From Naegleria gruberi (lineage: Eukaryota), in assembly GCA_000004985.1 (NCBI GenBank), contig GG738867.1: 64,000 nt of DNA. One strand, written 5' to 3'. Position 1 is the first letter of the stretch; every line of letters begins with the position of its first letter. A program made the translations under genes and the position numbers. This document shows, piece by piece, positions 1,471 through 63,204 of the stretch. The notes beneath the pieces were generated by a model. That model made no database searches and was not told the origin of the DNA. It saw nothing but the letters and a program-made list of their open reading frames with translations.

Positions 1471-2109
1471 AATGTGATTATTTCAATGATTTTGTTTCTA
1501 GCCGAATCTTTGCGAAAGTAACGGAAACAACTGGCGCCAAAATACAAAAGATTGAAATTGACCTAATTTGTGCAGTGCCGGCAATAATTCCATGTAGTCC
1601 ATTATTTGCATTCCTCTGTGACAATTTTCAAAAACAATTCCACAACATTATTTCACACCTGCCAACCTTCAACCCATCAATCCAATTTTTTACATTTTCC
1701 TTTGTTGAACTTCCTTTTCCACAAAACTCTTTCAACCACCAAAATTAAACGTTAAAACAAATCATCACTATTTTCAAAAAAAAATATGGTCAATTCTGAT
1801 TTGTGAATCTTCATCATACAACAACAATAACAATAAGAATAACAATCTTCAGCATACAACAAGAGAAACGCAAAATTTTCTTTTCAAACACACTCTGAAA
1901 ACCGCACAACAGCAACAACAGCAGCACCAAAATACATTAAATTCCGTTGGGCGGGAAATCTTTTGGATTTTAATTCGCTAATTCACAATTCATCATCATC
2001 ATTATCCATTAACTATATAATTTATATTTATTTCTCTATATATTTGATTATTGTTTTCATAAATAATTCTTCATCATTAGACCGGAAAATAGTAAATAAT
2101 TTTCAAATC

Positions 2110-5100
2110 ATGGCATCAAGTGATGTTCCAATTGAAAACAACCATATATCAACAACAACAACATGGGGAAGTGCTGCTACTAATACAATAACATCAACTC
2201 CAAGACTATTGCCGAAACCTCCAGTAACACCAAGAGGAAGTACAAAGGGAAGTTTGACACCATTAACAACGACAACAACAACCACCACTACTCCAAATAG
2301 TACTATTGCTAATGTTGTTAATGTAGGGAAACAACCTCCTCCAATTACAAATATTATTAGAAATCGAATAGAATTGGAGGAAAGAGAAAAGGAAAATCAA
2401 CAAAATATTCATTTATCATCACCGTTAACATCACCATCATCAATGCATAATAGTAATACTAATAGCTATTCGAATGAATATGAAAATTCCTCATACCTTT
2501 TCCAAGATGAAGTTGAAGAATATAAAACACCACCCAAACAATCGAGCACATCAACTCCCACAACAGAATCTTCATCTGCACTTCCTCCTCCTCCACCTTC
2601 TCTTCCATCATCAATGTCTAAATTGGCTTTAAAGAATGGAAAGATCAATAATAATTATCAGAAAGTAGTGACGACCACCATGATGAGTCCTCCACCTCCT
2701 CCACCAATAACAGTGGTGAGGAATGCACCTATTGCTACAATAGCTAGTACTGCATCACCAACAGTTTCGAATAGTAGTAATACTACACAACCAGAATCAC
2801 CTCGATTGGAAAGATACAAACCACTTCCTTCTGTTGCTAAATATAAGAGAGATTCAGTGGTAATTGCTAATTTGGCCAGTTTACCACCTCCTCAAATAAG
2901 TGATATGAAAGCATTCCTTGATATTTATGACAATAAGATACTAATTGTTGATTCGAGAGCATTTAGTGGCAGTAAAACTGTTAGTGAGCAATTAATATCA
3001 AGATTCACATTACGTACATTGACCATTGACAGCATTTTAGGAAGGGGCTGTTCGGGATGTGTCTATTTATGTAGTGAGAATGGAGAAAAGTTGGCTGTAA
3101 AGATTGTCACTCCAACTGCTACTTTTGCACCTAATGTAAAAGCAGAGTATGAACTAATGAGGTCATTGAATCATGATAGTATCATGAAAGTCCATGATTA
3201 TTTTGAAATGTTAACCTCACTTCAACCTGGATCTTTATTTACAATGAAATATTATGAAAATGGAGATTTGAGAAGATTAATTGAGGATTTTGAAAAGAAG
3301 GAAAAGAAAATCTCTATTCATGTATGTATTTTTTATAATTTTTAATGTAATGTGGATTTACCTTTGAATGAAAATTGAAACAAACAGTTGATTTATGATT
3401 TCATTTATCAAATGGCTAGCTCTTTAAATTTTATTCACACTCAAAAAATAATTCACCGAGATTTGGTATGTTTTAAAATTAATCAATTTCATAACCATTT
3501 CATCAATAGAAAGTAAGTTTCCTCTTTTGTTCCTCTTACTAAATTTGATTAATAGCCTGAAAATATTTTTATGGAAAAACAAACAGATCACACTTGTAAA
3601 ATAGTATTGGGAGATTTTGGATTGGCTAAAACTATACAACAATCACATGGACTCTATTCGATTGTTGGAACAATGAATTACCTTTCTCCTGAAATTGTAA
3701 ATAATTCTGAATACGGAGCAGAAACTGATATATGGAGTTTTGGTGTTGTCTGTTACGAGTTAATGACCTTAAAGAGTAAGCAAGTTGAAAGAGTGGTTAC
3801 ACTCCGCCAACAAGGAGCTCTCGTCAATGACATGCTCAACAGATATCCTCAAGAGGTTACCATGATCGAGTTGATTGTTCAAATGTTGAACAAGAATCCC
3901 TCTGATAGACCATCAGCGGATGAAATTCTCAAACAACCATGCATGAAACACTTTATTGAAATGAAGAAAGTGTGTGAACATATTGTACAGAAGCTTACTG
4001 AAAGTTTGGCTTATTTCCAGAAAAATTACGAGTTTGAAAAATGTGTACAGATCAAAGATCTTCTACAGAGTATTAGTCAACTGAGAGCAGAGTCCTGTGA
4101 TTCGAGTAGACTCAGGATATCACTCTTCAATGCATATACATTCTTGGAAGAAAAATTACCTGAAAATATTGACCTAAAACCAACTAAACCAAAGGTCAAT
4201 TTGGCTTCCTCTCCAGAAAAGCAAATAACTACCAAGAGAAGATCTAATACCAAAGCTGGTGTAACAAGTCCATCTAATCAAAATCCTCCATCATCCAATA
4301 CAACAATAACTACCACCACCAATAATCAACCTAACTTTAGAGTAACCATCTCAGGAGATGAGGAATTTTCACATCATTCTGAGGAATCTGAAAATTCCTC
4401 TGGTTCCACCGATAGTTCAACTGCTGTCAAGAAAAACTCCAATGCAAATAGTTTAGAGCTCGAAGATCCAAATATTATTAGAAAGAGGTCATCCTCTCGT
4501 AATACTATTATAAATCAAATCAAGGGATGGGTTGGTTATGGAACAGAAAAGGAGAAAAGCTTTAGACAAACTGTGGTAATTAAGCCACCAGATCCAAACA
4601 AGTTCCAACACAGCCATCACATTGGAGTGGACGATAGAAATAGAGTGAGTGGAAATTATCCAAAAGATTTTGATTCAGTCTTACAAGACATGCATATGGA
4701 ACCAGTAGAAAGCCCAATTGTTGAAACTCCCACTCCTGTCATTAAAGAAGGAGAAGAGGAAGAAGAAATTAAACCAAGACTACACAGAAGATCAACAAGT
4801 CTATTCGAAAAGCCATCCCTCAATCAATCTCTAGATGAGATTACAACAGTCGCGAGTCCAACCAAACAACGTAGCTCGACTGTGAAAAGTAGTAATAGCC
4901 CTGTACCACCAGTGGAGATTTTAAAAGATCCTCCAAACTCACCACCAAGTACAACAACTCCTTCGACACCCTCTAACTCTGAAATACTCAAAATTTCTCC
5001 ACGATTTGGAAAGGCTGGAAAGTTAGAAGTCAGTCCAACTCCATTCGAAATTACTGGTACTCCTGTAAAATCTCCAAACACACAAAATGGTGTGGAAATT

Positions 5101-5214
5101 CCAAGTATTGGAGGTGCATTCAAACTCATCTCTGACCGAAGACAACAAGATATCATTGAAAAGAATATTGAAGAAGCTTGTAGCTCACCAACAGTTTCAA
5201 GAAGACGAAGGTAA
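2110..5214 (+). CDS. Ser/Thr protein kinase, NEK-like catalytic domain, with long low-complexity N- and C-terminal extensions. Multi-exon model: 2110..3321, 3388..3465, candidate micro-exon 3510..3512, 3556..5214.
   Basis: Kinase motifs are present: GRGCSGCVY...LAVKIV (Gly-loop and VAIK), IIHRDL | K | PENIF, DFGLAK, GTMNYLSPE and DIWSFGVVCYEL. The catalytic domain is split across ORF-track pieces 1963..3345 and 3571..5214. Intron boundaries are GTATGT...CAG (3322..3387), GTATGT...ATAG (3466..3509) and GTAAGT...AATAG (3513..3555). Confidence 0.7.
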
Positions 5215-29251: not shown

Positions 29252-29879
29252 ATGAGCTTAAAGTCATCACAGCATCATAACGGATCATCAGCAACATCAT
29301 CTTCTAATAATCAATCATCACAACAACAACGATTATATGTCCGATATGTAGGTTTATAGTCGTTATATTAAATTATTATAATTTAGAAAAAATTAATTTA
29401 ATATTATTTTGATTAGTATGTTGGACATAAGGGAAAATATGGTCATGAATTTTTGGAAATTACTTTTCATCCCGATGGTTTATTAGAATATAAAAATAAT
29501 ACAGATTATAAAGGAGAGGGAGAAATATTGAAAACTGTAAATTTAAATAATATTGTGTTGGAGCAATTAAAGACAATAATTTTGGAATCACGTATTATGG
29601 AGTAAGTTTTGGATGTTAAATTTGGATATTAATCTGATGAATAGAGAAAGTGATCGAAAGTGGCCACTACCAGACAATATTGGAAAATCAGAATTGGAAA
29701 TTGTATTAGATAAGGAACACATTTCATTTGCCACCACTAAAATTCAAACTCTTTCCGAAGTTACCAAATCACATGATCCAGAAGGATTGAAGAACTTTTA
29801 TTATTTAACAGCTGATTTGAAAGATTTTGCACTCAACCTCATCAATATGCATCATAAACTCAAACCAATTCTGTACTAG
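29252..29879 (+). CDS. mago: Mago nashi (exon-junction complex subunit). Three exons: 29252..29347, 29417..29601, 29645..29879.
   Basis: Spliced translation gives ...[27 protein letters not shown]...LKTVNLNNIVLEQLKTIILESRIME-ESDRKWPLPDNIGKSELEIVLDKEHISFATTKIQTLSEVTKSHDPEGLKNFYYLTADLKDFALNLINMHHKLKPI. This matches the Mago nashi family essentially end to end. Introns are GTAGGT..TTAG (69 nt) and GTAAGT..ATAG (43 nt). Confidence 0.85.
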
Positions 29880-30157: not shown

Positions 30158-31200
30158 ATGCAACAAGAACAGGAGGAGGGTGATACATGTTTCGAAAGCG
30201 AACATGAGTACATCACCACACAAGATGGCTACAAAGTGTCTGGTACCTTGTTCTTTCCCATTCAACGTCATCTTGTAATTGATGAACACATGAAGACAAC
30301 TGTCATTTTATTAAGTGGAGCTATGGGAGTTCCTTCTAAATTTTATAGAGAATTTGCTAGATTTCTATGTGGAAAAACAAAATGTGTGATATCTACAATC
30401 GATTATAGANNNNNNNNNNNNNNNNNNNNNNNNNNNNNNNNNNNNNNNNNNNNNNNNNNCCATTCCAGGACTTTATTTATATTGGACACTCAATTGGTGC
30501 TCAAATACTGGCCTATTTCCCACCAGAATACTTGAAAAAACTGAGAGGAACTCTCCTAGTAGCGACACAAAGTGGTGCCCTTAAACATTGGCCATTAATT
30601 CGTCAGAGGGCAGAGTTGTACTTTTATTGGTATGTTTTTCTGCCGAGCATGACCATGCTGTATCCAAGGGAGGTTCCATTATTTGGTGTGGATAATCGAA
30701 TAATTTCAGATTGGTATGGAGCTGGTCGATGCCACAACAAGTATTTATTCGAATATTTTAATATTGGAGATGCAAAGGTTAATTCGAAACATGTATCTTG
30801 GATTTTACAAGACAAACCAGTGGTTGTATATAATGTAGATAATGATAAGTTTGCACCATATGATGCAACCATGTGGCTGACCAGAACATTTACTGAACCA
30901 AGTTTTGTTTCTGATTTGAAAATGGAATATTTCAATGACAAGTCAAAAGCTCTGCAAATAATGGATTTGAAATTTGATGGAAATGATAGAAAATTGGGAA
31001 CATTTGGAGGAAAACAAAAGATATTTTACTGTATTCGTGGCCAAGTTGCTAAAAATATTGGACATTTTAACTTTTTTAGGGAAAAGGAGGGAAAGAATGA
31101 ATGTTGGCCTCACTTGCTATCCCATTGTTTAGATTTATTAAATAATTGTGAAAATGATGATACATTAAATCCACCAACCACAAGACATAGTAAACTTTGA
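30158..31200 (+). CDS. Alpha/beta-hydrolase fold serine hydrolase with C-terminal PTS1 (-SKL), interrupted by an assembly gap.
   Basis: GHSIG nucleophile elbow (YIGHSIGAQ). C-terminal ...TTRHSKL*. Paralogue of 45097..46455. The frame changes across the 50-N gap (ORF-track 30158..30535 and 30532..31200). Confidence 0.65.
30410..30459. other. Assembly gap (50 N).
   Basis: Run of exactly 50 N characters inside the hydrolase CDS. Confidence 1.
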
Positions 31201-33906: not shown

Positions 33907-36620
33907 TTATTTTAACATGTTTTCAGATTCCTCAGTAAGATACTTGCCAATAATGGATTGAACAATAGTATTCTCGAGTGGGGTTGCTGAAAAACATCTC
34001 TCTGCACAACTGGCCATCACTTCTTGAACCAATGATGGAAGATAGGTCTTATCTTCAATCAGAGTGGCAAGTTTTTGTTGCATAAAAGCAATTTCAACTT
34101 GCAATTGTTGGAAACCATTCTTACCAAAAGTGAGACCTCTAACACATTCTTCCATGGTCTTTAAAACAATCTTGAGAACTTCAGTAACAATTTCATTACC
34201 ACTGAAACTGGAATCACCTGCTCGTTGGAAATATCTTGGTGTCTTGATGGAGAAACTTGAAAGTTTCTTGTTGAAAATTCTCATTACATCCTTCACAGCA
34301 TCAGAATTTTGACTATATTTGAGTGAAGAAGATGAATCCAAACCACCATATGAAAGACTTGACTCACCACCACTTCTTCCACTTCTGCCACTTCTACCAG
34401 AGTCACTCTTTTCTGTTTCAGTGTCATGAATTTGACTAGGTGGGAATAATTCAATCAAGTGAGACCTTATATTGAAAAGATCTGTAACTGTAACTCTGAT
34501 AAAGCTTCTCACGTCACGAGGAACATCGGTATCGAGCCAATTATGTGATTCCATGCTAGTTCTGATTAATTTGGAAACCGATCTGGCTTGAATTTCAATA
34601 TAATATACAATTAAGTGGGAAGTACATTCCTTGATACGAATTTCCATATTTTCAATATTGAAGAAGGTATCTTCATCTTCAAGTTCTGTCATACGACTTC
34701 TTGAGGATGTCTTTCTCACTGATTCGGATGATGAAAACTTTTCACGAAGCATGTGCTTGAAATCTCTCAATGGAAGTTTTGTACAAAGTTTGGTCAATAA
34801 GAGAGCTCCGACACATGTCACCTTACGGAATTTGTATTCTTCTGGTGTTAAAATAGAAACCTTGCTATGAGGAGTACCATAATCCTTACAGAATAACAAG
34901 AGAGAATCAATAAACTCGACACACATGGATCTAATCCAATTCTTGTAAAAGCTTTCTCTTGATGCCATAATGGATCCTAGTGGAGTTTGAGTATCCTCTT
35001 CATTGATAAAAACTCTATAATTATCCAATCCTGATTCCAAATCATTTTTCAAATTTTGAATAGCTCCATCAACTATGGAATATAATTGATTAGCTTTGGT
35101 ATTATCAGGTGTTTCGGCTAGCTTTTGAATATTGGTCTCAGTGTTAATCTTGACCAATTCCATTTGATTCATTAAGAATGTTCTCACAGTGTCACCAACT
35201 AAATTGTAAACCTTTTCTTGAAGCTTGTTGTTTGGAATTTCTACAATATGTGAAACGGATTCATTACAGAATAATCTGAGAGCTAACTTCAAGTCCTCGT
35301 TGGAACTCTTTGAATTGTGAAGTAAACTTCTAATGTGTTCAAAATATCCAATGAATAATTGTTTGGTCCATTCACTGAAATCTTTGGTAAGTTGTTCGTT
35401 GGTGATTTGTTTTCTAATTTTTGGATCATTGGTAAGGAAGGTCATTTGGTAGGTATAATAACATGATTGTACTCTTTTCAAAAATGATGCATTCAGTGAT
35501 TTCACTCTTTCACTGGTGTTTGCTGATTCTGTTTGTTTAATTACCCTTTCCATATCTGCCTTTAAAAATTCTGATCTGACCTTCAGATAGGAATCTCTCA
35601 CTTGTTCAACTGGAACCTCCAAATCTATCAAAATGCCGACATAATCTTGAACCTTTGGATCATCATCATCGGCAATATTTAACAAATCCTTTTCAATATT
35701 GGTCTTCATCTTGTTGATAACATCAGTAGATTCCTTTTCAATGTTTTTAAATCCAGATAAATTAGCATTCTTTTTAAATATTCTACTAGCAATATTGTAA
35801 TACTTGACAGCAATATTATACTTTTTCATTTCTATACAGTCATTCAATCTTGTTGGTAATTCCAACAAGAATTGCATTTTCTTTAAAGTTCTGTTGACAC
35901 TGGAAAGTCTCTCAATCTTGTCTCTCTTGTTTTGAAGATTGGAGTTAATAGTTTCCGAACAAGTAGTAATTTTATCCATATTTTGTAAAAGTGATTTCAT
36001 TTCATCTTCCATTCCTTCCACGTGATGTTTCATCTTCTTGATAGTATCTGTTGCTGTGATAAACTTGTTGTAATTTTGATAGACAAGCATTTGAAGTGAT
36101 GTATCCAAATTCTTAGTTTCTTTTCTCAGTGCCGATTCTTGTTGCAATAAATCCTCCACTGATTTGTTCATCAGAGTCTTTTTTAAAAAGTCATCTGCAT
36201 TAAAGTGACTTCCATCTATTATTAATTTCATGATGATAATGATGATGATGAAGTATTGTTATTATAATAATATATTATAATTCATATTATTGTTGTGAAA
36301 AAGTACATTATATAAATTTCATATTAATCCAAATCAACAATAAAATTATAATTTAACACGAATTCACAAAATCAAAACCTACCAATATCTGTCGTATCAA
36401 AAACTTGACTATTATTTACAACAGGTCTTGAAGGTGTTCCTTCATCTCCTTGGTCTTCCTCATCAGCCATGGCACCATAAAATTGTGCCAACAACAATCG
36501 TGATCTCTCTCTTTCCTTGTCCTCGGTCAAGTCAGCCAATGGAGTAGAGGTAACAACCTCCTCCTCATTATTGTTGTTTTTCATCACAGATCGGGAGGGT
36601 GTTCTTGTTGGTGTACTCAT
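33907..36620 (-). CDS. VPS51: Vps51 (GARP/EARP complex subunit, Vps51/Vps67/Ang2 family). Two exons: 36384..36620 and 33907..36216.
   Basis: Spliced junction gives ...LLLAQFYG...VFDTTDID-GSHFNADDFLKKTLMNKSVEDLLQQESALRKETKNLDTSLQMLVYQNYNKFITATDTIKKMK. This matches the Vps51 N-terminal domain, with LVYENYNKFISATDTIRKM as its hallmark. Intron GTAGGT...AATAG is 167 nt (36217..36383). Confidence 0.75.
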
Positions 36621-51752: not shown

Positions 51753-53330
51753 TCAATAAAATCTTCTGAACTTGGAAGGAGGAGCAATCATCCCTCCTCC
51801 ACCGAAGAAATGTGAATGTTGGAGGAATGTGACAGGAATATTCCCATCTTCTCTAATTCTTTTGAATTGTATCGTTTGTTCAGTGTTATGTAGCCCTCTA
51901 ACAGAAACGGTTTGATTTGTAACACTTTGAATATATTGAGCTTTCTTTTCTTCCAATTTTTTCTTATATGCATCCTTTTCATTTGTTGGCAGCTCTTTCC
52001 ACATTTTGCTAACCATTGACACAATCTCTTTTCTGGATTTATCTGGATTTTCTATAAGCATTTTTGGCTTGACAATATTGGTATAATAACTGTAAGCTGT
52101 TTTTTCTGGTTGCTCTATATTTCTGATTTTCTGCCCTTGACTAATTTCGAACATTCGATTCATTATTATGAACATGTCTTCTAGCATTAATGAAATGTCT
52201 TGAGTAATTTCTTTTTCATTGAAACAAGTATTAATATAATGAGTTGTTGAGTCAGTACTGACTGTGGCAGTTGTCAAACCATTTAACAGAGTTTCATTAG
52301 GAGTGGCATTATTATAAAATAATACATTTCCATCATCTTTGAAAATGATGACATTTTCGTAGATTTCTCCAAATATATAATTCTGTGAATCTCTAAACAT
52401 GTTGTATAATTTTGCCTTTCTCAAATTACAACTAACTTCATTATGTTGATAATAGGGAATATAATTTAAACATCTATGAATATTTGAAATAAGTGTTTCC
52501 TTACAACCACTGGTTTGAATTGCCCTTAAACCTGATTCACATAATTCTGATTCCAATTGTTGTAAATCACCTCCAGGGAAGTATTCCTTGTAAGAATTCA
52601 TTAAATCTTCCATTTTAGTCTTGACTTTAAAATTATATCCTTCATAGACAACTAATGCACCACGTAAAATACTCAATAATTGGAAAAAGTTATCAGTAAA
52701 GTTTAGATTAGGATATATCGACAAGTAAGCTCTCCTAATGGCTCTCATGGCAATTTGATTCAAAGTTGCTTGATCCTTAGCATTACTTTTCAAATGCTTC
52801 ATGAAACTTGTACAAGGACTGTCCTCTCCCGTCATTATATAATATTCATCATCAGAAATATCATCATCATCATCTCGGATTCTAAATACAACATGGTTAT
52901 CAGAAAATGTCTTCAAATGAGCTTCTTCATCTTCTTCATCTGAATCGAAATCATCATAATCATTCGTGAATGTATTCAAGCCTTCATCCATAGCAAAATC
53001 CATGTATGGATTAAAGTTGTATCTATTCCTTTTCTTCCTCTTCTCGGGCCGAGTTACTGCAGCTACAATACCTGCATCAGGTGCAAAAGGTAATACAGTA
53101 TCACTACCACCACACAAACAATTTACATAATACAATTTACAAAAACGTTCGGAGAAGAGTAATTCCTTCCACAACTTGTTGACCATCCACAATGGAGCAA
53201 ATTTATAATTCTTTTTTTCTCCTTTACATTCTACAGTATTAAAAAAGACATATTTTGGATGTATAAAGGAAAGTACATTGAGTATGAGTGGTTCTTGTTC
53301 AAACCATTCATAGGAGAGTGAAGAAGACAT
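51753..53330 (-). CDS. HMG-box DNA-binding protein.
   Basis: C-terminal HMG box EKTAYSYYTNIVKPKMLIENPDKSRKEIVSMVSKMWKELPTNEKDAYKKKLEEKKAQY. Preceded by an acidic region (DFDSDEEDEEAH). Confidence 0.6.
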   Translation of the reverse strand: MSSSLSYEWFEQEPLILNVLSFIHPKYVFFNTVECKGEKKNYKFAPLWMVNKLWKELLFSERFCKLYYVNCLCGGSDTVLPFAPDAGIVAAVTRPEKRKKRNRYNFNPYMDFAMDEGLNTFTNDYDDFDSDEEDEEAHLKTFSDNHVVFRIRDDDDDISDDEYYIMTGEDSPCTSFMKHLKSNAKDQATLNQIAMRAIRRAYLSIYPNLNFTDNFFQLLSILRGALVVYEGYNFKVKTKMEDLMNSYKEYFPGGDLQQLESELCESGLRAIQTSGCKETLISNIHRCLNYIPYYQHNEVSCNLRKAKLYNMFRDSQNYIFGEIYENVIIFKDDGNVLFYNNATPNETLLNGLTTATVSTDSTTHYINTCFNEKEITQDISLMLEDMFIIMNRMFEISQGQKIRNIEQPEKTAYSYYTNIVKPKMLIENPDKSRKEIVSMVSKMWKELPTNEKDAYKKKLEEKKAQYIQSVTNQTVSVRGLHNTEQTIQFKRIREDGNIPVTFLQHSHFFGGGGMIAPPSKFRRFY

Positions 53331-53553: not shown

Positions 53554-53647
53554 TAAAGAATAAGTAGAATTTATGAAAGAAAACCAATAGTGTGCATTTT
53601 GTAAAGTGTTCAGCCTTACTGTTCAGCACTATCTTTTCCAAAAAAAA

Positions 53648-54193
53648 ATGTCCAACGATCAATTTTTTGATGAGGATGAAATTTTGCAAAGTCTCTTTAC
53701 CAAATATCATGAAATAACATCATCATATGGAAATGGAACACTCTATCTCGGAAATCAGAGTAGTGTTGGTGCCTTTCCCGATAAATGGAATTATTCCGAG
53801 AAGGATTACCAACAAGTATTGTTAGAATTACAATCACTGAATATAAAATCAATTGTTTGTTGTGCTGATGGCTTGGCAATATTTCCTAATGAATTTGAAT
53901 ATTATCAAGTTGATGCAAGGGATTCTCCATCTTTTGATTATTTACCTATAATTGATGGAGCAGTTGAATTCATTAAAAGAAAACTCAATGAGGGATCTTC
54001 TGTGATCGTTCATTGCAATGCTGGAGTTTCCAGGAGTGCTACAATTGTGGTTGCATTCCTGATGAAAGTAGCCAAAATACCACTAGAGCAGGCTATTAGA
54101 ATGGTTAGGGAGAAGAGGAAATGTATTGATATCTCAAATTTCAAATCTCAATTAGTTCAATATGAAAATCAATTAAAGTTACTTGGAATGTAA
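53648..54193 (+). CDS. Dual-specificity protein phosphatase (DUSP).
   Basis: Catalytic loop VIVHCNAGVSRSAT (HCxxGxxRS). 182 aa from Met 53648. Confidence 0.75.
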   Translation: MSNDQFFDEDEILQSLFTKYHEITSSYGNGTLYLGNQSSVGAFPDKWNYSEKDYQQVLLELQSLNIKSIVCCADGLAIFPNEFEYYQVDARDSPSFDYLPIIDGAVEFIKRKLNEGSSVIVHCNAGVSRSATIVVAFLMKVAKIPLEQAIRMVREKRKCIDISNFKSQLVQYENQLKLLGM

Positions 54194-54319: not shown

Positions 54320-56833
54320 TTGTTTTATGGTGTTGGAAGAATTATCCAACAAGACAAAAAAATGGAACTTAAAGATGGTTACTTTCCTTCTTCCAATGGT
54401 TCCGATTTTACATCATTAGCAAAGTTGCAACGTTTTTCACCCATTTCTGTCTCATTCAATGTATTAATTTGCTTTGATTCAAAATATGAGACCGAAGTGA
54501 GTGTAAAGAAACATCAACTATCCGATGAAACAAATTTACTGGTAAGTATTAATCCACACCAAAATAATTTATTATTGATTGACTAATTTATTATTATATT
54601 ATTGAAAATAGGTAGAAACTCTTTCATCCAATCACCATTTAAAAAATTGTGAATATTTACTGCCAATCTATGAGTGCATTCCAGATGATGTTGATTCATA
54701 TTTTACTATTTCTCCCTATTGTAAAGAAGGTGATCTAGAAGAATGGATTCGTAGGAATGAATTTTCTCTGCAAAAACCCATTCCTCCCGAAACTATTCTT
54801 CTCATCCTCTATCAGGTTGGCATTGGTATTGATACGCTCCACCACTCAAATATTATTCACAGAGATTTGAAATTGAAAAACATTTTCGTTAGGGAGTATG
54901 ATCCAAACACAGGATATATCAAAATAATGATTGGAGACTTTGGTGATGCCAAACAAATGGAAAAGAGTTACTATGAATCGTCTGGTACCAAAACTTTTAA
55001 TGATTCACCTCCAGAAATAATAGACCAATGGAAGCAAAACAAGAAGGATGTTAAGTGGACAAAGAAAGCCGACTTATGGGGCATTGGTTGTGTGTTGTTT
55101 AGGTTATTGACATTTGATTTGGTATGTTGAGAATAGTTGTTTCATTAACACAGAAAAGACTTCTCCACTTCATGATATTATTTTCGATGATGCTAATGAC
55201 AATTGGATTGTAAATCTTTGTAACAGATTTGTATGTAGTTTTAATAATCAATTATTTCAAAATAATCATTGACAAGTAGCAACTCGATGACTTGTTTGTG
55301 AAATTACTATACTACACCTTACAACCAATCTACTCACAGAGAGGAGGATCTGCTAGTTTTTTGGAAAGGGTATTATTGGTTTTAACCCAAAAAGGTTGTC
55401 ATATACGTGATGAAAAAAGTGGGCTGATTAATGGTATTAGCAAAGCATTTAACGAAAATACAACTGAATTGATAAAGCAACAAACTCTCGATATTAGCAC
55501 TTTCATGGGAATGAGAGAGGACTATTTGAGAAAATTGGCAATATCAATCATAGACAATGATTTGGAAATATTAGAAGAAGTTCCTCATGCATTGGAAAAA
55601 GGAGATTCTTTTTACCAACAGAAACTAATTATTATGCTTACTACTAATGATTTGAAAGATGAGAAAGGGATGGAAGATATTTTTGAAAAATCAATTCAAT
55701 TATTTCCAAAATGTATTTATCTATCCAAATTATCATGTTCCCTTTTCTTCATGCTTGAAAAATATGAAAAATCATTATTATATATTGAGAAAGTAACATG
55801 TAATTCTGTTTTTAAACTAAATTATGAAGACTGGATTACCTGCTATGACATGAAATCAAATATTTATGCTATTCAGGAAAAATGGGATGAAGCATTATCG
55901 ATTGCAGAATTTATTCTTTTGGAATTGGCAGTTAGGAAAAGTAATTGTATTCCAAAGCACGTTATTGCTTTAAATAGAGCTGAATTGTATTTTAATAAGA
56001 AAGATTATGACCAATGTATTGAATCATGTACATTTGTAATTGACACATTTGAGAACCTTCATTCTGTAGAGGATGAGAAAAATGCCCACCTTGTAGCATA
56101 TACTTTGGCTGCTAAAGCATATGGAGAAAAAGGAGATCAGTATAATTGCTTTAGATTCATCCAGGTAGCTCATTCTACTAATGAAAGAGACTGCACAATT
56201 CTAATTATCAGAGCACAGTTATATATCAAGTTCAATCAGATTGAGTCTGCACTCGATAGTATTTTGAAAGCAATATCTATACAACCTCAAACAAGGGAAT
56301 ACTACGAGCTTGCTTTAACTGTGTTTAAAATGTGCAAAAATGTAAACATGACCACTTTATGTTCTGAACTGATTACCAAATTGGATAATAGAAAAGAGAT
56401 TACCAACTCAGACCTGAGTTTATTACTTAAATTAGAAACAAAATCTACTATTGAAACCATCAAACAAGATTCCTCTCATAATACTGTTTCACCTCTAAAT
56501 GCTATTGTAAAAACCAAAATCACTTTGAGCACTCTACGTGGAACCACTGTTAAGGTGGAATGCACTGACATTGAAGGTATCATCAAAGAATGCAGACATA
56601 AATTATTGAACGATAAGTTGGAAATAATTGTAAACATGAAAGAAAAGACTAGAATTGACTATATCGAAGATTTGGACCCCTCAATTAATTACACAATTTT
56701 AACAGTTGAAGAATTCAAGGATTTAGACGCGAAACAACCTCCTTCCAACACAAATTCAATCCTATTATCCTCCATGGCAGCTCTTTCTTTCCTTGCTGCC
56801 GCAACCTCCTATTTATTCATTGTAAGGAAATAA
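54320..56833 (+). CDS. Protein kinase domain fused to C-terminal TPR-like repeats (paralogue 1, Gly-loop degenerate). Three exons: 54320..54541, 54612..55121, 55280..56833.
   Basis: IIHRDLKLKNIF, IGDFGDAK, SGTKTFNDSPPE and DLWGIGCVLFRLL. Introns are GTAAGT..ATAG (70 nt) and GTATGT..GTAG (158 nt). In exon 1, SPISVSF replaces the GxGxxG loop. Confidence 0.55.
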
Positions 56834-56839
56834 AAAAAA

Positions 56840-59075
56840 ATGTCATTGCTCCTCTCGTCATATTCTCGCTTCCAAAATGTTGAGATGATTGGTGCTGGGT
56901 CTGGTGGGACTGTTTTCCGTGCTTTTGATCAAGAAATTGGAAAACAAGTGGCCATCAAAGTGACTAAAAGTATTCAAGAAATGAAAATTGTAAGTAAATT
57001 CTTGTTACATTGTAATCAATGGACAATAATTTAATATATTATATTAATAGTATAATTATATTAAAACAAACAATATTCAAAATAATTACCTGGTTGAAAT
57101 TTATGATCATTTACAGAGTGGTGACGATGACTCTATTATTGTGATGGAGTATTTTCGAGAGGGAAATTTAGAAAATTGGTTGAAACAAAGAAAGAAACCT
57201 CTCAGTTGGCTCTTAATTTATAGTATCCTATTGCAATTAACATTCGGAATACACTACTTGCATTCCAATAAGATTTTTCATAGAGATTTAAAGTTGAGTA
57301 ATATTTTGGTGGTGGAGGAGGTTTGTGAACACATGGTGAGAGTAAAGATTGCAGATTTGGGATTATCGAAAATAGTGGATCATGATACAATCAAGCACTC
57401 CAAGGTTGGAACTCACTATTATCTTCCACCAGAAGTCAGACAACAAACCACTGAAGAAATTATACCAGAGAAAATTGATATTTGGAGTTTTGGAATTCTG
57501 GTTTTCAGATTATTGTCCAGAGATTTTACGTATGATGTGGCCAGCAAGTTGGTCAATAGTAAGGAGAAGGATTTTTGTGAGGATGTACTGATGAAGATGA
57601 TTCAGAATAATGAAAATGTTGATTGTGGGGTTGTGACTAATTTTGTAACATTTCTCACACCAACACTCAAATTGAAACCAAGCGAAAGGTATAATTCACT
57701 GGATTTATTCGATTTATGTTTCAATATTCCAAATAATGAGTCGTATGTCGATCAAGATACTATTGACCTACTTGTTGATTGTAGAGTTGATCCTTTGATA
57801 ATTGGAATTTGTTACTTTTCTCTCAAACAGACAGAAAAATCAATTCACTATCTCGAAAAAGTATTAGAGAACAAAACAGAAAATAACAATAGTGCAGAGA
57901 AGGGCTTTGCATGTGCAATCATGGCCTTTATAACACTGTTCAATGGTAAAAACAGAACCATTGTTAATTCAGAGAAAGAATACAAAGTCAATCCTGACTT
58001 TTTGAGATATATTGAATATGTGGAGAAATATTCAATTACTTTCAAGCTGTATCATTTGTTAAAATCAAAGCAATATTTTATGAGCCAGCATTATGAAAAA
58101 TCTATAGAACATGCAGACCAATGTATAGAACATATTGGCTCTGCCTCTAGTTTGAAAGCTTGTTGCTTGCATGGTTTAGGTTATTATGATAAAGCACTTG
58201 AGGTTATGAAGAAAATCAACCCAAAAACTGAAATGGATTACAGAAACATGTCATATATTTATTTGGTTGAATATCAAAATTATGAGGAGGCTTTAAAGTG
58301 TGCAAATAGTGCACTAGAACTCAATCCAGGAGTTCCTGATTTTTATTTACTGAAAGTATGCTGCCTCGCAAGTGCTGCTCCAAGTGAGGCTCTTACTTGT
58401 TTGAAGAATGCTCGAAAATTAATTGGAAAAGTAGGTGTATATTACTATCACAAGGGGAGAATCTATTTGAATATGGGGAGATTGGAAATGGCTCTTTCTA
58501 AATTAAATAAGGCCCAAGAATTAGGTGAGGAGAGTATGAATTTGATTGCAGTTTTGGAAATGGCATTGGGTAGATTACCTGAAGCTCTTATTTCAATCAA
58601 TAGATATTTAGAAAAGTATCCAAATAATATTACAGCCCATAACAACAAGTTCAAGATATTAATCATGCAAAATTTGACAGAGGAGGCGAAAATTGAGCTA
58701 GAATTAATTGAACATCTCAAACGTCTCAACATCAAAACTGAAAAAACCATCAAACAACAATTGTATTTTGAAAATGACAAACCTCCCATCTCAAACATCT
58801 CAAACACGAATATTAAGGAGTGTTATTTTGTTTCCAAAAACCATACCTTCAAAAGAAAGATTAAATTTAACTCTGTGGAAGATCTTTTGAAGCAATGCAG
58901 AAAAGAATTTCAAGACGAAACAATCACCACTTTTATTGACGAAAATTCACAAGTATGTGATTTAAAATTTGGAACTTTTATACATGGAAAAACCTATACT
59001 GTTACTGGTGATTTGTATATGGAACAAACTTCATATATGAGCTCGCTAATGAATTATCTTTTCCAAAAACGGTAA
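56840..59075 (+). CDS. Protein kinase plus TPR-like repeat protein (paralogue 2, catalytic motifs intact). Two exons: 56840..56989, 57051..59075.
   Basis: IGAGSGGTVFRAF, VAIKV, LVEIYDH...IIVMEY, IFHRDLKLSNIL, IADLGLSK, THYYLPPE and DIWSFGILVFRLL. Intron GTAAGT..AATAG is 61 nt. The C-terminal about 450 aa are helical TPR-like repeats. Confidence 0.7.
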
Positions 59076-60973
59076 ACAACAAAGGCCAAAATTGAAATAG
59101 TGCCTACTATTACATATGGGCTTATTGAACTCGATTCAGCTACTACACTGTATGTTTCATCTTCAATAATTTCATCAAATGCTTGGCATTTGGTTGCTCC
59201 TAAATGAATGGAAATAATTTTACGTTTGAATAACTTGCTGGCTTTCTCCATTAAATTTTCCATAGAATCTGAACGAATACAATGAATATAAGGGTGTCCC
59301 TCTAATCTCAGCTTTACATCCTTTTCAATAAACTTTCCTACAACGGTTTCTCTGTTGGCATTCTTATCCATTTGTTGAATATTATTGGAAGCCTCCACTA
59401 TATTACCCATTTCAAGTAGAATATTACTTCTTATTTCATTACTAAATTTGCAAGTGGGAATTTTCTGAAGATGATTATTGATTGATGAAAGAGCTTGGTC
59501 ATATCTTTTCAATTTTTGATAACATTGAGCTAGTAGTAAATCAATTTTGTTTTGAGGTATCTTAACCATCAAGAATTCCTCCAAAGCTTGCTCATAACTA
59601 CCAATAGCTCTATAAGTTTTTCCTTTCAAATAGTGGCATCTTGATTTGTCAAATTCTCTTTCAGATTCCTTCAGTACAGTATCGTAAATATCCAAAGCTT
59701 CTCCAAATCTTTTCAAGTGAGCGAGTGTCTTCCCCTTCCCCAATAAAATATTAAAATAATTTTTGTGAATTCTTAAATTGTAATTATCCAATGCAAAATT
59801 AAAATCTTCAAGTGCATTTGCAAATTCTCGAGTCTTATACCTACACTGTCCTCTATTGATATATACAGTATCTTCATCCAATCCATCACGAATAATAGAA
59901 TTGATATCTAATATTGCTTCAGAATATTGCTTACTCATTGCCTTGTAGGAACTCAATAGTATTCTTGGTCTCCTTTCACAAGGCTTTAATTGTGTAACTC
60001 TCTTGAGATATGCTAATACCTTTGCTGTGAATCCAGAATTGACAACTTGAATTTGACCACTAAGGAAATATACCAAATACCCTCCATTTTTCAAGTGTAT
60101 GTCTATTAATCGAATAATATCAGGTTCAAAACTTGATGCCAATTGTTCTGCGTCTATTTCTGGATTTTCAGCTGCATTGAAAACTTTGAAAAGCATTGAA
60201 TATAAAATCATTAAATCAAATATATCACCCTCTCCCAAAAACATTCTCAATTCTCTATTATTGATTACATTGTAAAATATCAAATCTTCTCTACCAACAG
60301 GAATTGAAACGTTCTCTCCACTCTCTGGGTGCAAGAATGCAATAACATTTAATTGTCTACAAATATCCTCAAAAAGTATAGAACTATTCACTCTCAAAGA
60401 TGGTTCAGGTTGAAGAGTTCCTTGTAAAATAATAATGAAAAAATTATCTTGTAGAGGTGTCAGCTTTTCTCTAATGATTTTCAACCATAATCTTTCATCC
60501 TCATCAATAGGAATAAAATTGGTTGACTGTATAATGAAAAGGTTATACACAAATTGATCCAACTATTGAAAACCTACCAATTTCAATAATTTCATGAGTA
60601 TTAAACCGACACACCACACGTCAACCTTCATCAATTGCATCTCTCTAGTCTCCTCATCATTCGTCATATGTAAGAGACCCTCCACTTCCTTTGGCTTGAT
60701 TTGTGAAAATTCTTCAATGGCCAACAAATGACTTTTAATATTTTCTCTCTCGTCCAAAGTGTCAAATTCTAACGAATCAATCAAAGGAATTCCTTCCTCC
60801 TTTTTAATAATTAATTTTAACAAATTCAAGTGTGCCTTTCCAACATTATGATGGTATTTATGTAAAAATAGAATTAATTTATAAATTAAATGGATGATGG
60901 TGATAGGATCATGATTGTTCTCTTTGGCAGTGTTGATAAATTCCTCCAATGTAAATCTTTTCATTTTTTTCAA
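59054..60973 (-). pseudogene. Truncated and degenerate member of the same kinase-TPR family (pseudokinase or pseudogene).
   Basis: Only C-lobe-like sequence is present (HHNVGKAHLNL in place of HRDLKxxN; VDVWCVGLILMKLL). The N-lobe is absent. An in-frame TAG (...KLVGFQ*LDQFVYN...) separates ORF-track pieces 60563..60973 and 59054..60562. The TPR-like tail is conserved with paralogue 2. Confidence 0.5.
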
Positions 60974-61029: not shown

Positions 61030-63204
61030 TTATTTCTCTGATTCAAGGAAGGAATTGATGATATCAGTAAACTGAGAAGGAAATTCTCGTCTCTTTGCAA
61101 GTAATTCCAATGTTTCAGGTATTATTTTCTCATGCAATAAATCTAGACTTGGTCCATTAGAAGATTTCACTGTAAAGCACAATTTGGCATTGTATCCTTT
61201 TTCATTAATACATTGTCCAAACAATTGTCGTAATTGGTAGAAATACGTATAATCACAATCCATAAAAGTCATTGAAACTCTGTCAATAATAAATATGGTT
61301 TGCAATCTCTTTTCAGTTATTTCAATAATTTTGCTTTCTTTTCTAGTACCATCGATAGTGATTGAAACTTTGATTTTCTTTCCTGGTCTTTGTAACAATT
61401 CAATAAGTGACTTATTAGACATTTCTTCATAATCTTTGATAAATATTGAGCAAGCACCGAACCAATTCTTAATGGCCTCTTGTTGTATTTCAGGATGTGA
61501 TGTAAGGATATCCATATTAATCCATCTTATAGCCTTTGGTGCATATTTTACAATCTCTAAAGCATAATCCTTATTGCTAGATATAAACTTTGACACTTTT
61601 TGGAGACTTGTAAAAGGATCTTTTTTAAGAATTGCGATAATAATGTCCATTGAGTGTATGTACTCTTTAGGAATTGTGCTAATATTGTCTCCTCCTTTGA
61701 TGGAAGCAAGAACCATTTCTTTATCAATCTCAATACTACTATCAATTTCTGAAATGCTGAAACCTCTCCTCAAACAGTCTAAAATCAGCTCTCTATCGAT
61801 TCCAATGATATCCTTATATTCCTTTTTAAAAAGATACTTGAGAATGGATGGATTGACTCTTAGAGCCTCTTTAAGGAATTCCTTATCATGTCTCAATGAC
61901 TCATCCAATATCTTGAATAATTTTCTTTCCTGACGGCAATATTTCAACAGCCCTCTATTCTTCAAGAATTCACTGTCAACTTTGAGAGAAATATTCTTGG
62001 ATATGAATTCAGTGTCTATGGTAGTACTAACTTCTATTAACTTGCAGAATAAGTCGAAACTATTGAAAAAGCGATCATCCAAACATGCACAAATATCATC
62101 ACTTTCTACATCATGGCACAGGTACGATATGTCATAATCACGGGTTGTGCACGCCTTTACAATTTCCCAAGGCACAAATCCTATTTTTCCCTCAGCTTCT
62201 CCTTGATCCCAAGGGTAATCTGTATACTTTGAATTGGAAACCTTCGCTTTTTTTAATCCAATAATGTCAATGAGATTGCATGCTACTAAATATTCATCAT
62301 CAAATCCCAAATATCCCACCATTTGTTGTAATTGCAACACTAAAATTCCCTTATCACCTGGAACAAGGGAAACCCAATAATCACTTCTATAATTACAATT
62401 TTCAAAACTTGGATATGATAAACCTCCATAAAAAGAGCATAACAATTCCTTCTCCTTCCTTTGGAAACGGATAATATTTCCATTATTAGAAACTAGGAGA
62501 AATCTATTTGAGGATGTTGTGATTTTACACAGCTTCATATTGTCCATCTCAATAAACTCTACACAATTTGATATCTTTTCTCTGGTAATTTGAATTTCCT
62601 TTACCTCCTCATCTTGTTCATCTTTATCATCTTGGTCATTTTCTTCATCCTCTCCTTCATCTTCTTGATCATCTTCTTCATCTTCCTCTTCCTCTTCATC
62701 TTCTTCTTCTTCATCGTCATGTTCCTCTTCGTTTTGCTCTGTTTCATCATCTCCATCATTTTCATCTTTCCCTTGCTCATCTGTGACCATCATTGCATTC
62801 ACTTCCTCATCCATTTTCAATACCTTCAACAATCTTAACCAATATGCCAATGAATGATATTCATTCTCTGGATTACACTCTACAGACCAAGTCCATGTCA
62901 ATTTTCCTGAACAAATCTTGTTATTCCATAGAGTATCAACCCACTCCTTCAGCAAAAGTATGATCTTCTCACGGGAAAAGTACAAATCGTGCCAATCTTT
63001 ACACACCACAGCAAGTGATGGCAAATCCTTTGGTGAACAAAACTTGAATATATGACCCAATACAAATGGATCATATCGACAAACGAGAATATTTAGAGGT
63101 TTCTCCAATAATTGATTGGATTTTTGCTTTTTTGATGATGACAACGAGAGAGAGTTATCTTCCGAAGAGGTTCGCTTCATTTGGTGTTGGGAATTAGTAG
63201 ACAA
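61030..63204 (-). CDS. F-box-like protein with a long poly-acidic (D/E) tract.
   Basis: N-terminal F-box-like FVLGHIFKFCSPKDLPSLAVVCKDWHDL. About 60 aa run of D/E (DDETEQNEEEHDDEEEEDEEEEEDEEDD...). 724-aa uninterrupted ORF. Confidence 0.5.
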   Translation of the reverse strand: MSTNSQHQMKRTSSEDNSLSLSSSKKQKSNQLLEKPLNILVCRYDPFVLGHIFKFCSPKDLPSLAVVCKDWHDLYFSREKIILLLKEWVDTLWNNKICSGKLTWTWSVECNPENEYHSLAYWLRLLKVLKMDEEVNAMMVTDEQGKDENDGDDETEQNEEEHDDEEEEDEEEEEDEEDDQEDEGEDEENDQDDKDEQDEEVKEIQITREKISNCVEFIEMDNMKLCKITTSSNRFLLVSNNGNIIRFQRKEKELLCSFYGGLSYPSFENCNYRSDYWVSLVPGDKGILVLQLQQMVGYLGFDDEYLVACNLIDIIGLKKAKVSNSKYTDYPWDQGEAEGKIGFVPWEIVKACTTRDYDISYLCHDVESDDICACLDDRFFNSFDLFCKLIEVSTTIDTEFISKNISLKVDSEFLKNRGLLKYCRQERKLFKILDESLRHDKEFLKEALRVNPSILKYLFKKEYKDIIGIDRELILDCLRRGFSISEIDSSIEIDKEMVLASIKGGDNISTIPKEYIHSMDIIIAILKKDPFTSLQKVSKFISSNKDYALEIVKYAPKAIRWINMDILTSHPEIQQEAIKNWFGACSIFIKDYEEMSNKSLIELLQRPGKKIKVSITIDGTRKESKIIEITEKRLQTIFIIDRVSMTFMDCDYTYFYQLRQLFGQCINEKGYNAKLCFTVKSSNGPSLDLLHEKIIPETLELLAKRREFPSQFTDIINSFLESEK

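What the first reader, a model, noticed from the sequence alone, without database searches (positions are those of the whole stretch)
54320..60973. Tandem array of kinase-TPR paralogues: one intact, one with a degenerate Gly-loop, and one truncated pseudogene with an in-frame TAG
Three adjacent members of one family (kinase domain plus about 450 aa of TPR-like repeats) occupy 54.3-61.0 kb. Paralogue 2 (56840-59075) has all catalytic motifs intact. Paralogue 1 (54320-56833) keeps HRDLKLKN and DFG, but SPISVSF replaces the GxGxxG loop. The third copy (59054-60973, opposite strand) has only degenerate C-lobe sequence and lacks an N-lobe. It carries an in-frame TAG exactly inside a GTAGGTTTTCAATAG 15-mer. 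That 15-mer mimics donor plus acceptor consensus but is too short to be a spliceosomal intron. This fits a birth-and-death expansion of a lineage-specific kinase family.
Basis: partly seen in the sequence, partly recalled or inferred. Interest (0 to 1): 0.55.

Follow-up and report, generated by a model that had tools for sequence, protein, structure and literature searches.

The report
Naegleria kinase-TPR trio; TAG is intronic
Three neighbouring, very diverged kinase-plus-TPR genes of the amoeba Naegleria gruberi are really there, but the "stop codon" in the third copy most likely sits inside an ordinary 51-base intron, so that copy is probably a working gene, not a dead one.

Summary
The window is Naegleria gruberi NEG-M DNA. 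Copies 2 and 3 match NAEGRDRAFT_49011 and NAEGRDRAFT_67474 at 100% and 97% identity.

The sequence facts hold. There are three adjacent kinase/TPR genes. Copy 1 has no glycine loop. Copy 3 starts at the kinase hinge with no N-lobe. An in-frame TAG (60565-60563) lies in the 15-mer GTAGGTTTTCAATAG.

The pseudogene reading is not supported. The 15-mer is the 5' end of a canonical phase-0, 51-nt GT-AG intron (60577-60527). The public gene model uses exactly this intron.
- A 43-nt intron is validated in the same window, in the mago nashi gene.
- Only 1.1% of codons in long ORFs are spanned by chance by such an in-frame pseudo-intron.
- The 36 nt after the TAG look non-coding, while both flanking exons look coding.
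- 15-nt GTA..TAG units are not enriched in the window.

Copy 3 is best read as an intact 619-aa protein: kinase C-lobe remnant, TPRs, small C-terminal domain, hydrophobic tail.

The copies share only 22-25% identity overall (33% between the copy 1 and 2 kinase domains), so the duplications are old. No further members were found.

The real reading-frame problem is in copy 1, which has a 1-nt frame break at about 55122 and no public model. No transcript data were available. Interest is low.

The parts
54362..56833 (+). Copy 1 (P1), no public protein model. Layout: exon 1 54362-54541; 70-nt intron 54542-54611; exon 2 54612-55121; problematic stretch 55122-55279; exon 3 55280-56833. Kinase-like domain about 54461-55118, with no glycine in the Gly-loop but K, E, HRD, N and DFG kept. 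Pfam-detected TPRs about 55973-56290. Hydrophobic C-terminal tail about 56759-56824.
55122..55279 (+). Copy 1 frame break. The exon 2 frame stops at TGA 55128-55130. The +1 frame is open and coding-like over 55123-55230. A 49-nt intron (55231-55279, GTATGT..AAGTAG) joins that stretch in phase to exon 3. Alternatively, the whole 158 nt can be removed in frame as a GTATGT..AAGTAG intron.
56840..59075 (+). Copy 2 (P2) = NAEGRDRAFT_49011. Layout: exon 1 56840-56989; 61-nt intron 56990-57050; exon 2 57051-59075. Protein of 724 aa. Complete kinase domain (about 56873-57698), TPRs (about 57798-58691), small C-terminal domain, and a non-hydrophobic tail NYLFQKR*. The public model of 580 aa starts only at MVRVKIADLG.
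59054..60964 (-). Copy 3 (P3) = NAEGRDRAFT_67474. Layout: exon 1 60964-60578; intron 60577-60527; exon 2 60526-59054. Protein of 619 aa. Kinase C-lobe remnant (about 60964-60359, HRD changed to AHLN), TPRs (about 59866-59468), small C-terminal domain, hydrophobic tail (about 59128-59057).
60527..60577 (-). 51-nt phase-0 GT-AG intron of copy 3: GTAGGTTTTCAATAGTTGGATCAATTTGTGTATAACCTTTTCATTATACAG. It has a TATAAC branch-like motif and a pyrimidine-rich 3' end.
60563..60577 (-). It is the 5' end of the 51-nt intron.
59211..59317 (-). Stretch that the public copy 3 model removes as a 107-nt intron, which shifts the frame. It is coding-like and aligns with the C-terminal domain of copies 1 and 2, so that model's intron is probably a mis-prediction.
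59054..59075 (.). 22-nt overlap of the convergent 3' coding ends of copies 2 and 3.

Best explanation
The locus holds three old, strongly diverged tandem paralogues of a Naegleria gruberi gene family. The order of parts is: kinase or kinase-derived domain, TPR solenoid, a roughly 65-aa C-terminal domain, and a short C-terminal tail.

- **Copy 2** is a complete, probably active Ser/Thr kinase.
- **Copy 1** is a kinase-like protein without a glycine loop, so probably a pseudokinase or weak kinase.
- **Copy 3** is an intact gene, not a pseudogene. Its pre-mRNA carries one ordinary 51-nt phase-0 GT-AG intron (60577-60527) that contains the TAG. Splicing gives a 619-aa protein that starts at the kinase hinge.

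Inferred, not shown:
- Copy 3 keeps only a catalytically dead C-lobe, used as an interaction surface in the way KIND domains are.
- The TPRs act as scaffolds.
- The hydrophobic tails of copies 1 and 3 anchor them in a membrane.
- The non-catalytic paralogues could then organise or regulate signalling by the active copy.
For: **Organism and public model**
- Copy 2 matches XP_002677351.1 at 100% identity and copy 3 matches XP_002677443.1 at 97%.
- The latter splices exactly 60577-60527.

**Intron plausibility**
- Confident introns in this window are 43-70 nt with GTAAGT or GTATGT donors.
- The 43-nt mago nashi intron is validated by an uninterrupted Pfam match, residues 1-137 against profile 6-142.
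- N. gruberi introns average 203 bp, and a 30-bp minimum was used for Naegleria RNA-seq mapping (PMC8296547).

**Chance control**
- Only 1.1% of 14,213 codons in long ORFs are spanned by an in-frame 30-100-nt GTRNGT...YAG pseudo-intron. With strict donor hexamers the figure is 0.3%.
- A random nonsense mutation would therefore rarely sit in one.

**Codon usage (log-likelihood ratio, LLR)**
- Exon 1 scores 0.200 and exon 2 scores 0.223. Coding sequence averages 0.25; other frames average -0.6 to -0.9.
- The 36 nt between the 15-mer and the 51-nt acceptor score -0.227. That is 2.4 SD below coding 12-codon windows and within the range of open non-coding windows.

**Other support**
- Apart from the intronic TAG, the 619 codons are open, although copy 3 is only 22-25% identical to its paralogues.
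- The C-lobe homology is significant.
- C-terminal 19-aa hydropathy is 1.68 for copy 1, 1.89 for copy 3 and -0.08 for copy 2.
- 15-nt GTA..TAG units are not enriched in the window.
Against: - No transcript evidence could be obtained. The public model is a prediction, and gene predictors do splice around stop codons.
- The same model has a doubtful 3' intron and a truncated 5' end, so it is not reliable in detail.
- GTAGGT is not the commonest donor here. The other GTAGGT candidates (36382, 30001) are not independently validated.
- Removing only the 15-mer also keeps the frame and gives a C-lobe length like copy 2.
- Amino-acid tests on the 12 extra residues were neutral.
- No orthologues were found, so selection could not be measured.
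- Structure models were of low confidence (mean pLDDT 50.7 and 52.8). The C-terminal domain fold and the membrane anchoring are therefore inferences.
Confidence: 0.75

Rival explanations
1. Copy 3 is a decaying pseudogene: N-terminally truncated and carrying a true premature TAG. The GT...AG around the TAG would be coincidental, and the public model merely splices around the stop.
For: - The in-frame TAG is real.
- The N-lobe is absent and the catalytic residues are lost, with AHLN in place of HRD.
- No Pfam kinase hit and no orthologue detected.
- The public model is unreliable elsewhere.
Against: - There is a single stop in 631 codons, despite only 22-25% identity to the paralogues.
- Codon usage is coding-like on both sides of the TAG.
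- The chance that a random nonsense codon lies inside a well-formed in-frame pseudo-intron is about 1%.
- The 36 nt after the TAG look non-coding.
- The protein starts cleanly at the kinase hinge and runs to a conserved tail.
Confidence: 0.12
2. The 51-nt intron is real today but young. It would have arisen by intronization of formerly coding sequence after a nonsense change or a 15-nt insertion, using cryptic splice sites that keep the frame. This mechanism is discussed in PMC2586383 and PMC3443670.
For: - Copy 2 has continuous coding sequence at this position.
- The intron length is a multiple of three, and only one in-frame stop lies in it.
- Removing the 15-mer alone gives a C-lobe spacing like copy 2 (72 versus 70 residues from DxW to the subdomain XI Arg), and a higher alignment score to frame-corrected copy 1 (98 versus 77).
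Against: - That score gain is not significant: 96 of 1000 shuffles against copy 1 and 567 of 1000 against copy 2 reach it.
- Codon usage of the 36 nt is non-coding-like.
- No outgroup is available to polarise the change.
Confidence: 0.08
3. The 15-mer itself is excised as an ultra-short spliceosomal intron, as in heterotrich ciliates such as Stentor (PMC9505925).
For: - It has GTA...TAG ends and a length divisible by three, and its removal gives an open 631-codon frame.
- A second GTA..AATAG 15-mer, GTATGTTGAGAATAG, sits at a similar place in copy 1.
Against: - 15-nt GTA..TAG units are not enriched in the window: 11 and 5 on the two strands, against 1-18 for lengths 10-39.
- Validated and candidate introns here are 43 nt or longer.
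- There is no room for a branch site.
- In copy 1, removing the 15-mer runs straight into TAA.
Confidence: 0.02

Closest known systems
Kinases with C-terminal TPR repeats: bacterial Hanks-type Ser/Thr kinases with TPRs (for example PknG-like) and plant BSK receptor-like cytoplasmic kinases (named from my own knowledge)
   Same: The domain order is the same: a kinase or pseudokinase domain followed by TPR repeats. The best non-self word-index hits to copy 2 are 700-900-aa kinase+TPR proteins from bacteria and metagenomes.
   Different: - Identity is only 20-33%, and mostly confined to the kinase domain.
- The exhaustive search gave a mix of plant, oomycete, planctomycete and ctenophore kinases, with no full-length relative.
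- The Naegleria genes have spliceosomal introns, an extra C-terminal domain and, in two copies, a hydrophobic tail.
- Nothing here shows horizontal transfer or orthology.
[quoted passage not shown]
   Same: Copy 3 keeps only a catalytically dead kinase C-lobe at its N-terminus, joined to other interaction modules. This is the logic of a KIND domain, where the C-lobe serves as a protein-binding module.
   Different: - No Pfam KIND match at E <= 0.1.
- The origin is independent: copy 3 derives from neighbouring Naegleria kinase paralogues.
- No binding partner is known.
Ordinary short U2-type GT-AG introns of Naegleria
   Same: - The intron has a GT...AG boundary pair, a length of 51 nt, low GC content (0.29), a pyrimidine-rich 3' end and a TAAC branch-like motif.
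- Its length falls within the 43-70 nt of other short introns in this window.
   Different: - The donor is GTAGGT and the acceptor is CAG, rather than the commoner GTAAGT or GTATGT donors and TAG acceptor.
- The length is a multiple of three with only one in-frame stop.
- Splicing has not been observed.
Ultra-short 15-16-nt introns of heterotrich ciliates (Stentor; PMC9505925)
   Same: The 15-mer has the same length and GTA...TAG ends.
   Different: The organism is different, and no 15-nt intron population is present in this window.

Membership tests
Eukaryotic protein kinase (Pfam PF00069) | Profile match above the curated cut-off (31.7 bits) | tested here: met
   Copy 1 scores 90.9 bits and copy 2 scores 144.7 bits. 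Copy 3 gives no match at E <= 0.1, so this feature is not met for copy 3.
Eukaryotic protein kinase (catalytically competent) | GxGxxG loop, VAIK Lys, alpha-C Glu, HRD Asp, catalytic Asn, DFG Asp | tested here: inconclusive
   - Copy 2 has all of them, with DLG in place of DFG.
- Copy 1 lacks every glycine of the loop but keeps the others.
- Copy 3 lacks the N-lobe entirely and has AHLNLLKL in place of HRDLKxxN.
- Activity was not measured.
TPR repeat proteins | Pfam TPR family matches above the cut-off | tested here: met
   TPR_1 or TPR_2 score above the gathering threshold in all three: copy 1 28.8 bits (TPR_1), copy 2 64.4 bits (TPR_2), copy 3 49.8 bits (TPR_1). AlphaFold is confident only for copy 3 residues about 270-390 of exon 2, which fold as helical repeats.
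Pseudogene (copy 3) | A disabling lesion that splicing cannot remove | tested here: not met
   The only stop lies inside a canonical in-frame 51-nt GT-AG intron, and there are no frameshifts.
Pseudogene (copy 3) | Loss of the coding signature | tested here: not met
   Codon LLR is 0.200 for exon 1 and 0.223 for exon 2, within the coding range.
Pseudogene (copy 3) | No transcription, or relaxed selection (dN/dS near 1) | not testable with these tools
   No transcript data and no orthologue were available.
U2-type spliceosomal intron (the 51-mer) | GT-AG ends, a length within the organism's range, branch-like motif and pyrimidine tract | tested here: met
   The sequence is GTAGGT...TATAAC...TTTTCATTATACAG, 51 nt. 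A 43-nt intron is validated in the same window.
U2-type spliceosomal intron (the 51-mer) | Removal observed in mRNA | not testable with these tools
   Only a predicted public model uses this intron.
Ultra-short (15-nt) intron class | A genome-wide population of 15-16-nt GTA..TAG introns | tested here: not met
   Counts for 15 nt (11 and 5 on the two strands) are no higher than for lengths 10-39.
KIND domain | Match to the KIND sequence profile | tested here: not met
   No such Pfam hit for copy 3 at E <= 0.1. The resemblance is functional and architectural only.
Tail-anchored membrane protein | A single hydrophobic segment at the extreme C-terminus | tested here: inconclusive
   The best 19-aa Kyte-Doolittle window is C-terminal in copy 1 (1.68) and copy 3 (1.89). 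The copy 2 tail scores -0.08. N-terminal signal peptides were not tested, and membrane insertion was not tested.

The most novel reading that the evidence does not exclude
The locus would preserve, side by side, three stages of kinase decay into a scaffold: an active kinase (copy 2), a pseudokinase without a Gly-loop (copy 1), and a C-lobe-only, KIND-like module (copy 3). All three are fused to TPRs and a shared C-terminal domain, and two have membrane-anchoring tails. The copy 3 intron would itself be newly made by intronization around a stop codon. This would be an independent, datable origin of a KIND-type module, together with a caught-in-the-act intron gain.
Probability: 0.1. Interest if true: 0.5.

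Novelty: new member of a known kind. Interest (0 to 1): 0.2.

Why it matters
The main value is for annotation.
- The public N. gruberi models at this locus are wrong or missing. Copy 2 is truncated by 144 residues and so loses its N-lobe. Copy 3 lacks its first 109 residues and its C-terminal domain. Copy 1 has no model at all.
- In-frame stops in raw sequence of intron-containing protists should be tested against the next acceptor before a pseudogene is called.

Biologically, a C-lobe-only kinase derivative lying next to its kinase paralogues is a neat natural example of how KIND-like interaction modules can arise. It is not unexpected, and nothing here bears on a long-standing open question.

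Tried and rejected
1. **Stentor-like genome with 15-nt introns.** Rejected: no excess of 15-nt GTA..TAG units, and the organism is Naegleria.
2. **Copy 1 with a 32-nt intron (55122-55153) and a 77-nt middle exon.** Rejected: the phases do not fit and stops appear.
3. **Amino-acid evidence for extra coding sequence.** I asked whether copy 3's 12 residues after the TAG, or copy 1's 26 or 36 extra residues, are homologous to the paralogues. Scores were no better than with shuffled inserts. These tests are neutral.
4. **A shared intron position between copy 1 (donor at 55122) and copy 3 as support for the copy 3 intron.** Dropped: the sites are two codons apart, and the copy 1 "intron" may in fact be frameshifted coding sequence.
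5. **Transcript or genomic context look-ups.** Two metagenome scans, one for the 51-nt spliced junction and one for the 15-nt-spliced or unspliced sequence, found nothing.
6. **Family census.** Three word-indexed searches and one exhaustive HMMER search found no further family member. The top non-self hits are generic multi-domain kinases from unrelated taxa. This gives no support for an expansion or for bacterial origin.
7. **AlphaFold models.** Copy 3 exon 2 and the C-terminal domain gave mean pLDDT 50.7 and 52.8, too low for a fold search. The beta-beta-alpha-beta-beta pattern hints at a beta-grasp fold but is unproven.
8. **Pfam on the C-terminal domains at E <= 10.** Nothing meaningful.
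9. **Validation of GTAGGT as a donor through the Vps51-like gene at 36382.** The domain starts at the junction, so this is not conclusive.
Full report
**Source and context**

The window is AT-rich (GC 0.30-0.38). The long exon of copy 2 is 100% identical to XP_002677351.1 (NAEGRDRAFT_49011). Copy 3 matches XP_002677443.1 (NAEGRDRAFT_67474) at 97%. Both lie on a 424-kb Naegleria gruberi scaffold. Published figures for N. gruberi NEG-M are 41 Mb, 33% GC, 1.7 exons per gene and a mean intron of 203 bp. A minimum intron of 30 bp was used for Naegleria RNA-seq mapping (PMC8296547).

Neighbouring genes:
- an HMG-box gene (51756-53330, - strand);
- a dual-specificity phosphatase (53606-54193, + strand);
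- an F-box/DUF4116 gene (61030-63204, - strand).

**Gene models**

- *Copy 2.* ATG 56840, one 61-nt phase-0 intron (56990-57050, GTAAGT..AATAG), stop 59075, 724 aa.
  - The kinase domain is complete: Pfam Pkinase E 4.4e-42; GAGSGG, VAIK, HRDLKLSN, DLG, PPE.
  - It also has several TPRs.
  - Its closest solved relatives are generic (STE20/MST, PAK, MAP3K12, all about 75 bits).
  - The public model is N-terminally truncated and starts at MVRVKIADLG.
- *Copy 1.* ATG 54362 and a 70-nt phase-0 intron (54542-54611) within one codon of copy 2's intron position.
  - Pkinase E 1.2e-25.
  - RFSPISVSFNV replaces the glycine loop, while VSVKK, HRDLKLKN and DFG are kept.
  - TPRs are detected.
- *Copy 3 (- strand).* ATG 60964 and stop 59056-59054.
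  - There is no Pfam kinase hit.
  - Residues 1-190 nevertheless align to the C-lobes of copies 1 and 2 (z 8.3 and 7.5; 0 of 1000 shuffles), starting exactly at the hinge/alpha-D (FTLEEFI against GDLEEWI).
  - The HRD motif has become AHLN.
  - The preceding same-strand gene stops 66 nt upstream, and tblastn finds no N-lobe elsewhere. The N-lobe is truly absent.
- *All three* continue into TPRs, a roughly 65-aa C-terminal domain and a tail ending Y-x-F-x-(K/R)-(R/K).
  - The shuffle tests put the middle and C-terminal regions above the shuffle mean for every pair (z 2.9-7.4; at most 11 of 1000 shuffles reach the score).
  - The tails of copies 1 and 3 are hydrophobic (Kyte-Doolittle 1.68 and 1.89). 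The copy 2 tail is not (-0.08).

**The TAG**

The in-frame TAG (60565-60563) is real, and it is the end of GTAGGTTTTCAATAG. The same GT donor (60577) also pairs with a CAG acceptor at 60527. This gives a 51-nt phase-0 intron, GTAGGT...TATAAC...TTTTCATTATACAG, of 0.29 GC. The public model splices exactly there...LMKLLKL|STNFIPIDE.... A predicted model can simply dodge a stop codon, so I looked for independent evidence.

1. *Intron size.* Open-frame-joining candidates with strong donors in this window are 43-234 nt long. The 43-nt one in the mago nashi gene is validated by an uninterrupted Pfam match.
2. *Chance.* In 14,213 codons of long ORFs, only 1.1% are spanned by an in-frame 30-100-nt GTRNGT..YAG pseudo-intron. 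With strict donor hexamers the figure is 0.3%. A random nonsense mutation would very rarely be so placed.
3. *Codon usage.* Exon 1 (LLR 0.200) and exon 2 (0.223) are coding-like.
   - The 36 nt between the 15-mer and the 51-nt acceptor score -0.227.
   - Coding 12-codon windows score 0.248 +/- 0.197, and open non-coding ones score 0.000 +/- 0.216.
   - My own rough calculation from these figures puts the odds at about tenfold in favour of non-coding.
4. *15-nt units.* GTA..TAG units of 15 nt are not enriched.
5. *Open frame.* One stop in 631 codons, in a gene only 22-25% identical to its paralogues, implies long-term maintenance of the frame.

I therefore read the TAG as intronic and copy 3 as an intact 619-aa gene. 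My confidence is about 0.75, with another 0.08 or so for the variant in which this intron arose recently by intronization.

The 107-nt 3' intron in the public model (59317-59211) is probably wrong. That stretch is coding-like (LLR 0.191). The frame continues to a tail homologous to those of copies 1 and 2.

**Copy 1 has the real frame problem**

- After ...LLTFDL, the exon 2 frame hits TGA at 55128.
- The +1 frame is open from 55123 to 55230 (36 codons, LLR 0.193).
  - Only 1.4% of non-ORF windows of that length reach 0.2.
  - Only 5.9% of them are open.
- A 49-nt GTATGT..AAGTAG intron (55231-55279) joins this stretch in phase to exon 3.
- Reading it would restore a normal C-lobe length: 74 residues from DxW to the subdomain XI Arg, against 70 in copy 2. 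With a 158-nt intron the distance is only 38.
- One extra base (a G at 55121/55122) would explain the break.
- The alternatives are a very young frameshift, an assembly error, or rescue by the in-frame 158-nt intron (55122-55279).
- Amino-acid comparisons could not decide between them.
- No public protein corresponds to copy 1. Its best database hit scores 42 bits.

**Family size and relatives**

The word-indexed searches with all three proteins returned no other Naegleria member. The exhaustive HMMER search with copy 2 exon 2 returned no full-length relative.
- The best non-self hits are bacterial or metagenomic kinase+TPR proteins (20-33% identity), or multi-domain kinases from plants, oomycetes, planctomycetes and a ctenophore.
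- "Lineage-specific" is compatible with this. "Expansion" is not shown. The divergence implies old duplications.

**Mechanism**

Shown:
- the domain content;
- loss of catalytic parts in copies 1 and 3;
- the hydrophobic tails.

Inferred:
- Copy 3's dead C-lobe acts as a binding module, as KIND domains do (PMC2064798, PMC3934834).
- The TPRs act as scaffolds.
- The tails act as membrane anchors.
- The shared C-terminal domain may have a beta-grasp fold. The model shows a beta-beta-alpha-beta-beta pattern but has a mean pLDDT of only 52.8, so this is unproven.

**Verdict**

The pseudogene and micro-intron-mimic interpretation is not supported. These are ordinary, poorly annotated genes with an ordinary short intron, and interest is low.

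Noticed in passing
window 55122-55279 (+): Copy 1 has a one-base frame break. A coding-like open +1 frame (55123-55230) is joined in phase to exon 3 by a 49-nt intron (55231-55279). Alternatively, an in-frame 158-nt intron removes the whole stretch. No public protein model exists for this gene.
   Followed up: partly
window 56831-56842 (+): The stop of copy 1 (TAA 56831-56833) and the ATG of copy 2 (56840) are only 6 nt apart and in the same frame. An AATAAA motif overlaps the stop. The promoter and 5' end of copy 2 must therefore lie inside copy 1, or the two genes share a transcript.
   Followed up: no
window 59054-59075: The convergent coding ends of copies 2 and 3 overlap by 22 nt. The imperfectly palindromic DNA encodes similar tails on the two strands, NYLFQKR* and VYRFWKR*. 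The 3' UTRs must be antisense to each other's coding sequence.
   Followed up: partly
window 56840-57272 and 59057-59317 / 60638-60964: The public models are mis-built. XP_002677351.1 lacks the first 144 residues of copy 2, which removes the N-lobe. XP_002677443.1 lacks the first 109 residues of copy 3 and splices out a coding-like 107-nt stretch, losing the C-terminal domain and tail.
   Followed up: yes
window 29602-29644 (+): A 43-nt GTAAGT..AATAG intron lies in a mago nashi gene. It is validated by a continuous Pfam match (E 1.2e-56) and serves as a local benchmark for minimal intron size.
   Followed up: yes
window 1843-5211 (+): A second kinase gene with a different architecture has a long N-terminal region and no TPRs. 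At least two introns lie inside its kinase domain, and one donor directly follows KIIHRDL.
   Followed up: partly
window 30410-30459: A run of 50 N marks an assembly gap inside a candidate ORF.
   Followed up: no
window 61030-63204 (-): An F-box protein with DUF4116 repeats and a long acidic Asp/Glu-rich tract lies immediately upstream of copy 3.
   Followed up: no
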